Positions 3,801-6,271 are shown, numbered from the stretch's first letter. The stretch is DNA of 10,231 nt from a virus (IMGVR_UViG_2675903289_000006), one strand, 5' to 3'. Numbers and translations are program-made. Notes: generated from the letters alone by a model not told the origin.

Positions 3801-3966
3801 CGTACTCAACGTCCATGCTGTAACGCCCGGCTTCATCCGGATTTTCTGAGGCCAGCGTGTTCACCACCACCGTGGTGCTGTTACGTTTTGCTTTCAGCTG
3901 GATTGTGCAGTTCTGTACCGGTTTTCCTGTGCCGTCTTTCAGTACACCTGAAATCTTTACTGCCAT
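877..3966 (-). CDS. stf: Side tail fibre protein Stf (lambda Stf / StfR family), about 1029 aa, with a 21-nt N-run at 2934..2954
   Basis: Long minus-strand ORF. The N-terminus [36 protein letters not shown]... matches the lambda Stf N-terminus as recalled, followed by a long Ala/Ser/Thr-rich low-complexity shaft, a duplicated [27 protein letters not shown] motif, a Gly/His-rich distal region and the C-terminus ...[11 protein letters not shown]. The likely start is ATG 3964..3966, preceded by GGGGTG as ribosome-binding site; the ORF track extends to a GTG at 3972. Stop is TAA at 877..879. Confidence 0.9.
2345..2608 (-). repeat. Two tandem 132-bp (44-codon) repeats inside stf encoding the KGI(V/I)[11 protein letters not shown](S/T)[11 protein letters not shown] motif
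   Basis: The string gccgccag recurs at 2378..2385 and 2510..2517 with similar flanks; the protein shows two consecutive units. The repeat also creates the mirrored antisense ORF 2345..2674. Confidence 0.7.
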
Positions 3967-3977
3967 ATTCACCCCAC

Positions 3978-4004
3978 AAAAAAGCCCGCCTGAACCGGCG
4001 GGCT
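3978..4004 (-). terminator. Putative rho-independent terminator between the lom paralog and stf
   Basis: On the minus strand: 8-bp GC-rich stem AGCCCGCC, loop GGTTCA, stem GGCGGGCT, then TTTTTT, about 12 nt before the stf ATG. Confidence 0.5.
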
Positions 4005-4030
4005 GTCATAACACTGTGTTACCTGGCTAA

Positions 4031-4547
4031 TCAGAATTTATAACCGACACCCACGATGAAACCGTCAGTGCGCCAGAGACGTGTTGCTGTGGCGACCGTC
4101 ATCACTTCCGGTCAGCACATCGTGCGTTTTCCCCTTATTGTCAGTTACGCGGATATAATCCCCGGAAAAAGTCGACACACGGCTGTAAGCCACACCCGCC
4201 ATCGCATACGCGCTGAACCATTCATTCACGCGCACAGACGGCCCCGCCATCACGCTGAACCAGCGGTTACGCACGGAATCTTCATGCCAGCGGGTATCGC
4301 TGTAACGGGTCAGCTGGCGATTCTTGTCTCCTGCATAGCTGAATGACGTCACCAGCCCCAGCGTATCCGTAAACTCATAACGGTATTTCACGTTAATCCC
4401 GTTCAGATCATCACTGCCGGGAACGTTGGTCCGGGCATGAAGATACCCCGCGCTCAGCGTGGACTGATGTTCAGACGCCCATGCAGGCGCACCGGATACG
4501 GCCAGGCAAATGGCTGCGGACAAAATGGCTGCACAAACTTTACGCAT
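4031..4547 (-). pseudogene. Lom-family outer membrane beta-barrel paralog, C-terminally truncated by an 83-bp deletion (intact ORF 4065..4547, 160 aa)
   Basis: N-terminus MRKVCAAILSAAICLAVSGAPAWASEHQSTLSAGYL is identical to the lom copy at 5605..6204, including the signal peptide. Aligning the two DNA copies shows that 5651..5733 of the intact copy (83 bp, flanked by CTGGCG direct repeats) is missing here. The frameshift gives ...NTSLAH-stop in place of ...NTSLAWGAGVQFNPTESVAIDLAYEGSGSGDWRTDGFIVGVGYKF, removing the last beta-strands and the C-terminal Phe. The out-of-frame remnant of the ancestral 3' end runs to about 4031. Confidence 0.6.
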
Positions 4548-4571
4548 AATTACCTCTCGCTTTTCTGCAAT

Positions 4572-4595
4572 AAAAAAGGCGTCATTCCTGACGCC
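4572..4595 (-). terminator. Putative rho-independent terminator between the mosaic ORF and the lom paralog
   Basis: On the minus strand: stem GGCGTCA, loop GGAA, stem TGACGCC, then TTTTTTATT. It sits in the same position as the hairpin between J and lom (6229..6252), with a different stem sequence but the same structure. Confidence 0.5.
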
Positions 4596-4617
4596 ATTTA
4601 TTGGGGTTATAAATATT

Positions 4618-5544
4618 TCAACGAATACTGATGCCGGAAGCCGCTTTTTTGGTCACAATCACCGTACAGTCGGTGATATTGCCTGCCCCCTGATTGCCTT
4701 TCTGGAAAATCTTAAACTCCAGAGTGACGCTACCACCACCACTAGGCATATCAATAACTGCACTGTAACTACCGGGAATGGCACCTTTAGTTTCTCTGGA
4801 TGCGATTAATACGCCGTTTTTGCGAACTTCAAAACCATAACCCGTGTATCGCGTGCCTCCTGGGTTATTTCCGCTCCCCGGATCGTCATACGCTATACCG
4901 TTAAAAATAATGGGCGGAATAATAATCTGGCGGTCAAAGTTATGATCATCGCTTATGGTGACTGTAACCGTCCCGTTTGGTGTTTCCGTGTTACCCCACG
5001 TACCAGCCTGTTTCGGAAATGATTTGGATACAGCTTTAACGAAGTCACCTCTGACCTGAGTCGCCTCCAGCATGCCCTTAATCGTACAGTTTTCATTTAC
5101 CGTGACATTGTTGAGCGTCCCGGCGTTCGCATTCACACTGCCACTGATATCCGCATTTTTAGCGGTCAGCTTNNNNNNNNNNNNNNNNNNNNNNNNNNNN
5201 NNNNNNNNNNNNNNNNNNNNNNNNNNNNNNNNNNNNNNNNNNNNNNNNNNNNNNNNNNNNNNNNNNNNNNNNNNNNNNNNNNNNNNNNNNNNNNNNNNNN
5301 NNNNNNNNNNNNNNNNNNNNNNNNNNNNNNNNNNNNNNNNNNNNNNNNNNNNNNNNNNNNNNNNNNNNNNNNNNNNNNNNNNNNNNNNNNNNNNNNNNNN
5401 NNNNNNNNNGTCCGTCACGCAAGTGGCAACAACGTGTGCCACAACGGTCGGACTGGTTCTTCTGGCCCGCAGTTCAATCGCACAATTTACGACAGGTTTA
5501 CCCGCCCCATCTTTCAGTACACCTGAAATCTTTACTGCCATATT
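4618..5544 (-). CDS. Mosaic tail-fibre ORF: Stf-like N-terminus joined across N-run 5173..5409 to a J-like C-terminal receptor-binding domain; may be an assembly artefact
   Basis: The N-terminal part (5410..5544) reads [44 protein letters not shown], a diverged homolog of the Stf N-terminus, with the same upstream hairpin and GGGGTG ribosome-binding site as stf. The C-terminal part (4618..5172) reads [29 protein letters not shown]...DMPSGGGSVTLEF...TKKAASGISIR, homologous to the J C-terminus at 6272..6835 ([29 protein letters not shown]...[13 protein letters not shown]...[10 protein letters not shown]) but strongly diverged after the first ~25 residues. The join is hidden in 237 N, so continuity and frame are unverified. 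Confidence 0.4.
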   Translation of the reverse strand, partial: NMAVKISGVLKDGAGKPVVNCAIELRARRTSPTVVAHVVATCVTDXXXXXXXXXXXXXXXXXXXXXXXXXXXXXXXXXXXXXXXXXXXXXXXXXXXXXXXXXXXXXXXXXXXXXXXXXXXXXXXKLTAKNADISGSVNANAGTLNNVTVNENCTIKGMLEATQVRGDFVKAVSKSFPKQAGTWGNTETPNGTVTVTISDDHNFDRQIIIPPIIFNGIAYDDPGSGNNPGGTRYTGYGFEVRKNGVLIASRETKGAIPGSYSAVIDMPSGGGSVTLEFKIFQKGNQGAGNITDCTVIVTKKAASGISIR

Positions 5545-5552
5545 CACCCCAC

Positions 5553-5577
5553 AAAAAGCCCGCCTGAACCAGCGGGC
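5553..5577 (-). terminator. Weaker hairpin plus T-run between lom and the mosaic ORF, paralogous to 3978..4004
   Basis: On the minus strand: 6-bp GC stem GCCCGC/GCGGGC with an 8-nt loop, followed by TTTTT. Two stem positions differ from the stf-proximal copy, shortening the stem. Confidence 0.35.
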
Positions 5578-5604
5578 AGTCATAACACTGTGTTACCTGG
5601 CTAA

Positions 5605-6204
5605 TCAGAACTTATAACCGACACCCACGATGAAACCGTCAGTGCGCCAGTCACCACTGCCGGAACCTTCATAAGCAAGGTCAATGGCCACGGATTCGGT
5701 CGGGTTAAACTGCACGCCAGCCCCCCACGCCAGAGACGTGTTGCTGTGGCGACCGCCATCACTTCCGGTCAGCACATCGTGCGTTTTCCCCTTGTTGTCA
5801 GTTACGCGGAGATAATCCCCGGAGAAGGTCGACACACGGCTGTAAGCCACGCCCGCCATCGCATACGCGCTGAACCATTCATTCACGCGCACAGACGGCC
5901 CCGCCATCACGCTGAACCAGCGGTTACGCACGGAATCCTCATGCCAGCGGGTATCGCTGTAATGCGTTTTTTGCTCATCTTCAGCGTTGGCATAACTGAA
6001 TGACGTAATCAGCCCCAGCGTGTCCGTAAACTCATAACGGTATTTCACGTTAATGCCCTTCAGGTCATCGCTGCCTGGCATATCAGTATGGGTCTGAAGA
6101 TACCCGGCGCTCAGCGTGGACTGATGTTCAGACGCCCATGCAGGCGCACCGGATACGGCCAGACAGATGGCTGCGGACAAAATGGCTGCACAAACTTTAC
6201 GCAT
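5605..6204 (-). CDS. lom: Lom outer membrane protein (Ail/Lom/OmpX-family beta-barrel), 199 aa, apparently intact
   Basis: Minus-strand ORF with signal peptide MRKVCAAILSAAICLAVSGAPAWA, alternating aromatic/hydrophobic beta-strand pattern and C-terminal ...GVGYKF typical of outer membrane beta-barrels. Ribosome-binding site GAGAGG lies 5 nt before the ATG. It sits directly after J, as in lambda. Confidence 0.9.
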   Translation of the reverse strand: MRKVCAAILSAAICLAVSGAPAWASEHQSTLSAGYLQTHTDMPGSDDLKGINVKYRYEFTDTLGLITSFSYANAEDEQKTHYSDTRWHEDSVRNRWFSVMAGPSVRVNEWFSAYAMAGVAYSRVSTFSGDYLRVTDNKGKTHDVLTGSDGGRHSNTSLAWGAGVQFNPTESVAIDLAYEGSGSGDWRTDGFIVGVGYKF

Positions 6205-6228
6205 AATTACCTCTCGCTTTTCTGCAAT

Positions 6229-6252
6229 AAAAAAGGCACCATTTCTGGTGCC
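6229..6252 (-). terminator. Putative rho-independent terminator between J and lom
   Basis: On the minus strand: stem GGCACC, loop AGAAAT, stem GGTGCC, then TTTTTTATT, about 20 nt after the J stop and about 24 nt before the lom ATG. Confidence 0.5.
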
Positions 6253-6271
6253 CGTATCTGGGTTATAAAAT

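What the first reader, a model, noticed from the sequence alone, without database searches (positions are those of the whole stretch)
3961..6255. Segmental duplication of a terminator - lom - terminator - stf-start module with compensatory hairpin changes
The unit (J-type hairpin, lom, stf-type hairpin, ribosome-binding site, MAVKISG start) occurs twice, at about 5541..6255 and 3961..4600. The J-proximal hairpins differ in stem sequence but keep the structure (GGCACC/GGTGCC with a 6-nt loop vs GGCGTCA/TGACGCC with a 4-nt loop, both followed by TTTTTTATT). That pattern suggests selection on RNA structure and argues that both copies are genuine diverged loci. Each lom copy is bracketed by hairpin plus T-run on both sides, so lom looks insulated from late tail-gene transcription, and stf would then depend on terminator readthrough. 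Lambda lom is known to be expressed in lysogens.
Basis: partly seen in the sequence, partly recalled or inferred. Interest (0 to 1): 0.45.

Follow-up and report, generated by a model that had tools for sequence, protein, structure and literature searches.

The report
Scaffold artefact joining two prophage loci
The apparent tandem duplication of the lom gene module comes from a draft assembly that interleaved pieces of two separate Shigella sonnei prophages, and the hairpins beside lom are ordinary terminator-like hairpins of the kind also seen in phage lambda.

Summary
The two copies are in the window as described, about 84% identical over about 1.45 kb. They also extend further than reported, into the 3' end of J. 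Their tandem arrangement is not biological. Every non-N base of the window is an exact or near-exact copy of one of two prophage tail regions, P1 and P2. In complete S. sonnei genomes these lie 0.7 to 4 Mb apart. In the window the blocks are interleaved in the order P2-P1-P2-P1. Two of the three joins are N runs. The N runs are scaffold gaps of the wrong size: one of 83 N stands for 0 nt. The "mosaic ORF" (stf start fused to a J C-terminus) exists only across a 237-N gap. No complete genome carries the arrangement.

All four hairpins are terminator-like on the coding strand. Both J-proximal hairpins have 7-8 bp stems with GNRA tetraloops, so the reported 6-nt loop is a mis-parse. Among 80 related prophages, two stem pairs covary, and one sequence shows a G·U intermediate. 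The hairpin is therefore under selection, but as allelic variation between prophages, not as divergence after a duplication. Lambda has the same layout. Readthrough to stf follows from Q antitermination. Interest is low.

The parts
8935..10231 (-). Block from prophage P2: middle part of gene J (about J nt 614-1910)
   Evidence: 99.7% identical to L013 7067-8363, with 3-4 mismatches. Only 94.8% identical to P1.
8862..8934 (.). Scaffold gap of 73 N
   Evidence: The flanks map to L013 8413 and 8363, so the true distance is 49 nt, not 73.
8697..8861 (-). Block from prophage P2: gene J (about nt 1960-2124)
   Evidence: Exact match to L013 8413-8577.
8696..8696 (.). Single-N join between a P1 contig and a P2 contig, with a backstep of about 540 nt in J
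   Evidence: The left side continues as P1 and the right side as P2. Neither reference continues across the N.
7352..8695 (-). Block from prophage P1: gene J (about nt 1582-2925)
   Evidence: Exact match to L003 8014-9357 from an S. sonnei complete genome. In P1 it continues only 18 nt beyond window base 5172.
5410..7361 (-). Block from prophage P2, which is 'copy A': J C-terminus (6272-7361), lom (5605-6204), start of stf (ATG at 5544, read to 5410)
   Evidence: Identical to L013 8844-10795 except for the NNN at 6355-6357. 99.0% identical to E. coli O121 NZ_CP119441, where a single J-lom-stf is annotated. Pfam Ail_Lom 1-199/199 and phage_tail_N. The join to P1 at 7352-7361 is a shared 10-mer, AAATGCCGAT.
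6225..6254 (-). J-proximal terminator-like hairpin of P2: GGGCACCA GAAA UGGUGCCU followed by UUUUUAUU
   Evidence: Terminator scan gives 8 pairs and a 4-nt loop. The hairpin alone folds at -13.7 kcal/mol. The 64-nt context has z = -3.18.
5550..5578 (-). lom-stf terminator-like hairpin of P2: GCCCGCU GGUUCA GGCGGGC followed by UUUUUGUGG
   Evidence: Found by the terminator scan. Folds at -14.6 kcal/mol. The context z-score is only -0.10.
5173..5409 (.). Scaffold gap of 237 N. It hides the only junction that could prove a tandem duplication, and it is the middle of the 'mosaic ORF'.
   Evidence: P1 continues past 5172 with TCCGTCCGGAGTCAGGGA and then the bases found at 7352 onward. P2 continues past 5410 into stf.
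385..5172 (-). Block from prophage P1, which contains 'copy B': J C-terminus (4618-5172), truncated lom' (4065-4547), stf (877-3966), tfa (from 877 down)
   Evidence: Exact match to L003 outside the 21-N run at 2934-2954, which stands for 15 nt. The gene order J(1165 aa)-lom'(160 aa)-stf(1027 aa)-tfa-IS1 is seen in ten S. sonnei assemblies, including Ss046 and 53G.
4569..4596 (-). J-proximal terminator-like hairpin of P1: GGCGUCA GGAA UGACGCC followed by UUUUUUAUU
   Evidence: Terminator scan gives 7 pairs and a 4-nt loop, and it also scores on the + strand. Folds at -12.6 kcal/mol. Context z = -3.41.
3975..4004 (-). lom-stf terminator-like hairpin of P1: AGCCCGCC GGUUCA GGCGGGCU followed by UUUUUGUGG
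   Evidence: Terminator scan gives 8 pairs. Folds at -17.7 kcal/mol. Context z = -2.17.
302..384 (.). Scaffold gap of 83 N inside tfa
   Evidence: The flanks overlap by 8 nt (CCAGCAAC) and are contiguous in the complete genome, so the true gap is 0.

Best explanation
The window is a piece of a scaffolded draft assembly of Shigella sonnei or a very close relative. Contigs from two paralogous lambdoid prophage tail regions were threaded into one linear scaffold. P1 runs J - lom' (with the 83-bp deletion) - stf - tfa. P2 runs J - lom - stf', with stf' cut by IS elements.

Read along the coding (minus) strand, the order is:
- P2, J nt 614-2124
- P1, J nt 1582-2925
- P2, J nt 2391 to the end, then lom and stf nt 1-195
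- P1, J nt 2944 to the end, then lom', stf and tfa

These are two almost complete collinear paths shuffled together. Gaps (N runs) or a 10-nt chance overlap sit at the joins. The 'segmental duplication' and the stf::J 'mosaic ORF' are therefore artefacts.

The real biology is this. Each prophage carries one lom gene between J and stf, and each spacer holds a G+C-rich hairpin followed by a U-run on the coding strand. I infer that these are intrinsic terminators. They would stop unmodified RNA polymerase, so that in a lysogen lom forms a short separate unit and stray transcription is kept out of it and out of stf. Q-modified polymerase coming from the late promoter would read through them during lytic growth, so stf and tfa are still made. 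The J-proximal hairpin is kept by compensatory substitutions across lambdoid prophages.

Shown here: the block origins, the gap errors, the hairpin folds and the covariation. Inferred: actual termination, Q readthrough in these particular prophages, and independent lom transcription.
For: Block origins:
- The P1 blocks (1-92, 93-301, 385-2933, 2955-5172, 7352-8695) are exact substrings of S. sonnei locus L003.
- The P2 blocks (5410-6354, 6358-7361, 8697-8861) are exact substrings of L013 and seven of the eight other P2 loci checked. Block 8935-10231 is 99.7% identical.

Separate loci:
- The same complete genomes hold both loci far apart. In CP019689.1 they are at 0.42 and 4.63 Mb. In JBEAAB010000011.1 they are at 0.32 and 1.00 Mb.
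- Each locus there has one J, one lom and one stf (gene tables).

Gap errors:
- 83 N stands for 0 nt, with an 8-nt overlap of the flanks. 73 N stands for 49 nt. 21 N stands for 15 nt.
- The P2 block 5410-7361 sits in an 18-nt 'gap' of P1.

Absence elsewhere:
- None of 5426 complete E. coli genomes has a place covering 80% or more of 3600-6700. Each copy on its own matches thousands of ordinary J-lom-stf junctions.
- The N-free chimeric join is absent from IMG/VR, JGI metagenomes and GTDB representatives. It is not contiguous in any complete E. coli genome.

Hairpins:
- All four are found by the terminator scan on the minus strand, with energies of -12.6 to -17.7 kcal/mol.
- The 80 IMG/VR lom loci give 8 distinct J-lom variants (10 rows with the two window copies). 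97% of cells are paired, against 26-57% when the partners are slid. Pair 8-19 shows GC 6 / AU 3 / GU 1, and pair 9-18 shows CG 6 / UA 4.
- Lambda has hairpins at the same two positions.

Literature:
- Q lets RNA polymerase resist terminators and is needed for the whole late transcript (PMC4005639, PMC10695390).
- lom is expressed in lysogens (PMC7067206).
- Morons carry their own promoter and terminator (PMC3594210).
Against: I could not find the source assembly or its reads, so the misassembly is inferred from comparison with other genomes rather than seen in read data. The join at 7352-7361 has no N and keeps the J reading frame, with a 525-nt in-frame repeat. That is what a real microhomology-mediated event could also give.

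On function:
- No sigma-70-like promoter was found on the coding strand between 3800 and 6900, so an independent lom transcript is not supported by sequence here.
- The number of terminator-like sites in the region (5) is not clearly above the shuffles (3.0 +/- 1.8).
- One lom-stf hairpin context has z = -0.10.
- The covariation rests on only 10 distinct, related sequences. The count of pairs with changes on both sides does not exceed the shuffles (385/500).
- lom G+C content (0.56) does not stand out from J or stf.
Confidence: 0.92

Rival explanations
1. The arrangement is real in this strain. A 1.9-kb segment of prophage P2 (J C-terminus - lom - stf start) was inserted into the J gene of prophage P1 by illegitimate or microhomology-mediated recombination. 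This would give two lom modules in tandem and a genuine Stf-N::J-C fusion ORF.
For: The join at 7352-7361 is N-free, uses a 10-nt microhomology and keeps J in frame. Prophage tail regions do get rearranged: CP019689.1 carries the P2 tail block twice, 9417 bp apart.
Against: This would need at least three independent non-homologous joins within 4 kb, each with a backstep of about 520-560 nt, which together happen to reproduce two complete collinear paths. Two of the three joins are N or N runs. The N runs elsewhere in the window are demonstrably false gaps. The arrangement is absent from all complete genomes and from three large collections. The blocks are identical to the unrearranged loci.
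Confidence: 0.04
2. The duplication is an old tandem duplication within one prophage, and the copies have since diverged under selection.
For: The copies differ by 3-28% depending on the segment, and they show compensatory hairpin changes.
Against: Each copy is 100% identical to a locus in a different prophage of complete S. sonnei genomes. The divergence is patchy, with 72% identity in J-C, 96-97% in parts of lom and the spacer, and 75% in the stf start. That pattern is typical of mosaic lambdoid alleles rather than of clock-like divergence. The same hairpin variants circulate among unrelated prophages.
Confidence: 0.02
3. The hairpins are real and selected, but their main role is not termination. 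They might protect the 3' ends of processed J and lom messages from exonucleases. Alternatively they might be conserved module boundaries where lambdoid phages recombine.
For: The sequence from the J-proximal hairpin through the lom start is almost invariant, while J-C upstream is highly variable. This suggests a recombination boundary. In the lytic cycle Q-modified polymerase would ignore terminators anyway (PMC4005639). Seven loci carry the same stem with the loop flipped, so the stem rather than the loop is what is kept.
Against: All four have the full intrinsic-terminator signature: a G+C-rich stem, a short loop and an immediately following U-run on the coding strand. The U-run is invariant in all 80 loci, which a pure stability element or recombination site would not require. 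These roles do not exclude one another.
Confidence: 0.15

Closest known systems
Phage lambda J - lom - stf (orf-401) region, NC_001416 18903-19650
   Same: The gene order is the same. A hairpin plus T-run lies in the J-lom spacer (CGUCCG GGAA CGGGCG UUUUAUUAU, -9.7 kcal/mol). A hairpin plus T-run lies in the lom-stf spacer (AGCCCGCC..GGUGGGCU UUUUUUGUGG, -17.2 kcal/mol), followed by the same GTGGGGTGAATATGGCAGTAAAGATTTCAGG stf start.
   Different: The lambda J-lom stem sequence is unrelated to the ones here. The lambda Lom sequence visibly differs from both window copies (identity not computed). Neither hairpin is annotated in NC_001416 or J02459.
Shigella sonnei prophages as in Ss046 (CP000038.1), 53G (HE616528.1) and CP019689.1
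   Same: The window blocks are exact copies of these two prophage tail regions. This includes the 83-bp lom' deletion of P1.
   Different: In those genomes the two regions are separate loci and J is uninterrupted (1165 and 1159 aa). In the window they are interleaved, with N runs at the joins.
Scaffolding misassembly of paralogous repeats (interleaved variant contigs, false gaps)
   Same: There are N runs of arbitrary length at block boundaries. The flanks of some N runs overlap or abut in the true sequence. A single-N join is present. The blocks alternate between two paralogues in collinear order.
   Different: One join (7352-7361) carries no N. The assembler and the reads are unknown to me.
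Prophage 'moron' transcription units (Juhala/Hendrix concept, reviewed in PMC3594210)
   Same: This is a non-essential accessory gene (lom) set between tail genes, with a terminator-like hairpin downstream. Lambda lom is reported to be expressed in lysogens (PMC7067206, PMC3594210).
   Different: No own promoter was detected here. The G+C content does not deviate. A second terminator-like hairpin sits immediately upstream of the lom RBS.

Membership tests
Genuine tandem segmental duplication | The two copies are contiguous on one molecule and the novel junction is actually sequenced | tested here: not met
   The junction between the copies is 237 N (5173-5409). The flanks continue differently in the reference loci.
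Genuine tandem segmental duplication | The same arrangement is found in independent closed assemblies | tested here: not met
   0 of 5426 complete E. coli genomes. The S. sonnei assemblies examined, most of them closed or Mb-scale, have one J-lom-stf per locus. The chimeric join is absent from three collections and not contiguous.
Scaffold misassembly (interleaved paralogous contigs) | Each block is identical to a different, separate locus of closed genomes of the same organism | tested here: met
   Exact substring matches to L003 (P1) and L013 (P2). The loci lie 0.7-4 Mb apart.
Scaffold misassembly (interleaved paralogous contigs) | N runs lie at block boundaries and their lengths disagree with the true sequence | tested here: met
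   83 N for 0 nt, 73 N for 49 nt and 21 N for 15 nt, plus a single-N join at 8696.
Scaffold misassembly (interleaved paralogous contigs) | Read-level evidence: no reads or pairs support the joins | not testable with these tools
   The source assembly and its reads are not available. The window was not found in any searchable collection.
Intrinsic (factor-independent) terminator | G+C-rich stem of 5 bp or more, loop of 3-8 nt, and a U-rich tract directly 3' of the stem, on the coding strand downstream of a stop codon | tested here: met
   All four sites pass the scan on the minus strand. Energies are -12.6 to -17.7 kcal/mol.
Intrinsic (factor-independent) terminator | The structure is conserved through compensatory change among relatives | tested here: met
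   For the J-lom hairpin, two pairs change on both sides, a G·U intermediate is seen, and 97% of cells are paired against 26-57% when slid. For the lom-stf hairpin only one-sided or wobble changes were seen. The sample is small: 10 distinct sequences.
Intrinsic (factor-independent) terminator | Transcripts end at the U-run in vivo or in vitro | not testable with these tools
   No 3'-end data are available. No paper found in the library maps these ends.
Moron (autonomous prophage transcription unit) | Own promoter upstream of the gene | tested here: inconclusive
   There is no sigma-70-like match on the minus strand in 3800-6900 at the scan's threshold. The literature says little is known about the lom promoter (PMC2147009).
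Moron (autonomous prophage transcription unit) | Own terminator downstream | tested here: met
   lom-stf hairpins at 5558-5577 and 3983-4004.
Moron (autonomous prophage transcription unit) | Base composition differs from the neighbouring genes | tested here: not met
   lom G+C is 0.56, against 0.55 for stf and 0.57-0.59 for the body of J. Only the J C-terminal domain is lower, at 0.48-0.50.
Ail/Lom outer-membrane beta-barrel family (PF06316) | Full-length match to the family profile | tested here: met
   Copy A matches 1-199 of 199, E = 4e-129. Copy B matches only 1-159 of 199 and lacks the last strands because of the 83-bp deletion.

The most novel reading that the evidence does not exclude
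The scaffold might reflect a real rearrangement in this one strain. In that case a P2 J-C/lom/stf-start segment sits inside the P1 J gene. The result would be two lom modules in tandem and a true fusion protein with the Stf N-terminal domain joined to a J-type C-terminal receptor-binding domain. A second and milder possibility is that the J-proximal hairpin 28 nt upstream of the lom start acts as an attenuator. It would then set lom expression from a promoter hidden inside J.
Probability: 0.04. Interest if true: 0.35.

Novelty: not a real feature. Interest (0 to 1): 0.07.

Why it matters
The main value is as a caution. In draft scaffolds of Shigella and E. coli, which carry several near-identical lambdoid prophages, apparent tandem duplications, internal repeats in J and 'mosaic' tail-fibre ORFs next to N runs should be assumed to be interleaved paralogous contigs until reads or closed genomes say otherwise.

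The biological remainder is modest. The terminator-like hairpins on both sides of lom are conserved across lambdoid prophages, and the upstream one shows compensatory changes. Neither is annotated in the lambda reference records. Where lom transcription starts in a lysogen is still not known, and the hairpin directly upstream of its ribosome-binding site constrains where a promoter could be.

Tried and rejected
1. Source of the window. I searched for exact patterns: the lom' deletion junction in GTDB representatives, and the N-free chimeric join in IMG/VR, JGI metagenomes and GTDB representatives. All gave nothing, so the assembler and reads remain unknown.

2. The tandem arrangement in complete E. 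coli genomes. Searching with the whole region and with the join alone gave only composite hits made of separate pieces.

3. A lom promoter. The consensus scan found no sigma-70-like site on the coding strand. Inspecting by eye the 28 nt between the U-run and the ATG gave no convincing -10/-35 pair.

4. Rfam search over the whole window. It found nothing in the lom spacers, only IS009 inside tfa.

5. Literature. I looked for mapped terminators or a lom transcription start site in lambda. I found only general statements. The ribosome-profiling paper (PMC3718152) is not held.

6. I considered that the N runs might be deliberate masks over real sequence. I rejected this because their lengths disagree with the true sequence and their flanks overlap.

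7. I considered a deviation in G+C content as support for lom being a moron. It was not met.
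Full report
**What is in the window**

All genes lie on the minus strand. Read in the direction of transcription, from 10231 down, the window appears to hold:
- a broken J gene with internal repeats
- a hairpin, then lom (6204-5605, 199 aa), then a hairpin
- an stf start (MAVKISG, ATG at 5544)
- a run of 237 N
- a J-type C-terminal domain ending at 4618
- a hairpin, then a shorter lom (4547-4065, 160 aa), then a hairpin
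- a full stf (3966-877), then tfa

There are six N runs: 302-384, 2934-2954, 5173-5409, 6355-6357, 8696 and 8862-8934.

**Check of the observation**

The two modules are really there. Aligning 3840-5172 with 5410-6830 gives 84% column identity over 1452 columns (repeat families). This is far beyond chance.

The repeated unit is larger than the finding states. It starts about 550 nt inside J, in the C-terminal receptor-binding domain (Pfam Ig_GpJ_C), and runs about 100 nt into stf. Identity is patchy:
- about 72% in the J C-terminus
- 88-96% in lom
- 97% in the lom-stf spacer
- 75% in the stf start

Copy B lom has an 83-bp deletion between two CGCCAG repeats. This shifts the frame and removes the last strands of the barrel, leaving profile positions 1-159 of 199.

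The '6-nt loop' is a mis-parse. Two stem pairs differ on both sides, A-U to G-C and C-G to U-A.

**The tandem arrangement is an assembly artefact**

The exact 160-aa Lom' protein is widespread, occurring in 1212 blocks of the collection. It is found in complete Shigella sonnei genomes such as Ss046 (CP000038.1) and 53G (HE616528.1). There the locus reads J (1165 aa) - lom' - stf (1027 aa) - tfa - IS1, with one copy of each gene. I call this prophage P1.

The exact 199-aa Lom lies in another prophage of the same genomes, which I call P2. It reads J (1159 aa) - lom - a short stf remnant followed by IS elements. The two loci are far apart. In CP019689.1 they sit at 0.42 and 4.63 Mb. In JBEAAB010000011.1 they sit at 0.32 and 1.00 Mb.

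BLAST and exact substring tests show that every non-N base of the window comes from one of these two loci:
- P1: 1-301, 385-5172 and 7352-8695, all exact
- P2: 5410-7361 and 8697-8861, exact, and 8935-10231, 99.7% identical

In J coordinates, the order along the mRNA strand is:
- P2 614-2124
- P1 1582-2925
- P2 2391 to the end, plus lom and stf 1-195
- P1 2944 to the end, plus lom', stf and tfa

These are two nearly complete collinear paths shuffled together, with a backstep of about 520-560 nt at each switch.

The P2 block that forms 'copy A' sits in what is an 18-nt stretch of P1. P1 continues from window base 5172 with TCCGTCCGGAGTCAGGGA and then with the bases found at 7352.

The N runs are scaffold gaps of the wrong size:
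- The 83-N run is flanked by an 8-nt overlap (CCAGCAAC), and the true gap is zero.
- The 73-N run stands for 49 nt.
- The 21-N run stands for 15 nt.
- The P1-to-P2 switch at 8696 is a single N.

The only N-free switch (7352-7361) is a shared 10-mer, AAATGCCGAT.

The same artefact produces the two apparent tandem repeats inside J, at 6827-7126 / 7352-7651 and 8153-8666 / 8697-9234.

**Independent checks**

None of 5426 complete E. coli genomes has a place covering 80% or more of 3600-6700. The best 'places' squeeze both copies onto a single 1.66-kb J-lom-stf junction.

Each copy taken alone matches ordinary annotated J / Ail-Lom / tail-fibre junctions. Copy B matches at 98% in about 1900 genomes. 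Copy A matches at 99% in E. coli O121 and others, and that match stops exactly at the chimeric join.

The chimeric join is absent from IMG/VR, JGI metagenomes and GTDB species representatives. In complete E. coli genomes its two halves are found only as separate pieces, spanning 451 nt of the record against the 150-nt query.

I could not find the source assembly, so read-level proof is missing.

**What the hairpins are**

All four meet the simple intrinsic-terminator pattern on the coding strand. Hairpin energies are -13.7, -12.6, -14.6 and -17.7 kcal/mol.

Context z-scores against shuffles are -3.2, -3.4, -0.1 and -2.2. The count of such sites in the region (5) is not by itself above chance (3.0 +/- 1.8). 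The argument therefore rests on position and conservation.

Among 80 lom loci from IMG/VR, the J-lom spacer occurs in 8 distinct variants (10 rows with the two window copies). The U-run and everything down to the lom ATG are invariant, while the stem varies:
- GGCGCC/GGCGCC, 48 loci
- GGCACC/GGUGCC, 15 counting the window copy
- GGCGUC/GACGCC
- one G·U intermediate (L078)
- a variant with the loop flipped

On the named structure 97% of cells pair, against 26-57% when the partners are slid. Pair 8-19 is GC 6 / AU 3 / GU 1, and pair 9-18 is CG 6 / UA 4. The sample is small and related, and the count of covarying pairs does not exceed the shuffles.

The lom-stf hairpin shows only one-sided or wobble changes.

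Lambda itself has hairpins with U-runs at both positions. The J-lom stem there has a different sequence, and the lom-stf hairpin and stf start are nearly the same as here. Neither is annotated in NC_001416 or J02459.

**How it most likely works**

Each prophage has one lom gene flanked by intrinsic terminators. This step is inferred.
- In a lysogen, unmodified RNA polymerase would stop at these sites. lom would then be a short unit, and transcription would not run on into stf/tfa.
- Transcription entering from J would stop before lom.
- In lytic growth the late transcript is made by Q-modified polymerase. This polymerase resists terminators and is needed for all late genes (PMC4005639, PMC10695390).

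Readthrough to stf is therefore the expected, known behaviour and not a special dependency.

lom expression in lambda lysogens is reported (PMC7067206, PMC3594210). It was not seen in one array study, which notes that little is known about the lom promoter (PMC2147009). I found no sigma-70-like site on the coding strand within 600 nt upstream of either copy. The origin of a lysogenic lom transcript remains open. The hairpin ends only 28 nt before the ATG, which leaves little room for a promoter downstream of it.

**Comparison with known systems, and novelty**

The layout is that of lambda J-lom-stf. It partly fits the 'moron' description: the terminator is present, the promoter was not found, and the G+C content is not deviant.

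The headline feature, a segmental duplication with a mosaic ORF, is not real. The compensatory hairpin changes are real but reflect allelic diversity among prophages.

**Verdict**

This is an artefact plus ordinary biology. Interest is low.

Noticed in passing
window 6827-7126 vs 7352-7651, and 8153-8666 vs 8697-9234: There are two apparent tandem repeats inside gene J, at 93% and 90-96% identity with spacings of 525 and 544-568 nt. One of them is in frame. They come from the same interleaving of P1 and P2 contigs and are not real repeats.
   Followed up: yes
window 4071-4076 (lom' deletion junction): An 83-bp deletion between CGCCAG direct repeats truncates Lom to 160 aa. The exact truncated protein is found in 1212 collection blocks, including S. 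sonnei Ss046 and 53G. It is therefore a real, widespread pseudogene-like allele of that prophage.
   Followed up: partly
window 92/93: 56 nt present in all the S. sonnei complete genomes examined (TATAGTGGCTTACGCC...ACTCGCC, downstream of tfa) are missing from the window, with no N at the site. This could be a strain difference or another assembly join.
   Followed up: no
window 385-527 (-): Rfam family IS009 (RF02111) matches at 148 bits (gathering score 117), inside the tfa coding region and directly next to the false 83-N gap.
   Followed up: no
L017 (CP019689.1 4626665-4647264), lom at 10001-10600 and 19418-20017: One complete S. sonnei genome carries the P2 tail block (M-L-K-I-J-lom) twice, 9417 bp apart, with IS elements between the copies. 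This is a segmental duplication including lom in a closed assembly, but of a different kind from the one in the window.
   Followed up: partly
L035, L038, L053 and four further IMG/VR loci, about 40 nt upstream of lom: Seven of the 80 loci have the same J-lom stem (GGCGCCA/TGGCGCC) with the loop reverse-complemented (TTTC instead of GAAA), as if the hairpin tip had been inverted.
   Followed up: no
L032, L084, L056, L074 and similar (19 of 80 IMG/VR loci), downstream of lom: lom is followed by an unrelated sequence (TGACAACAGACGCCGATTT...) in place of the stf-type hairpin and stf start. The downstream boundary of the lom module is therefore variable.
   Followed up: no
window 4578-4595, both strands: The P1 J-lom hairpin also scores as terminator-like on the plus strand (followed by ATTTATTGGG). 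It could act against transcription coming from the opposite direction.
   Followed up: no
L016/L022 10622-12603 (P2 in complete genomes): In P2 the stf gene is reduced to an N-terminal remnant of about 122 aa and is followed by IS elements. The 'stf start' of copy A belongs to a defective tail-fibre gene.
   Followed up: partly
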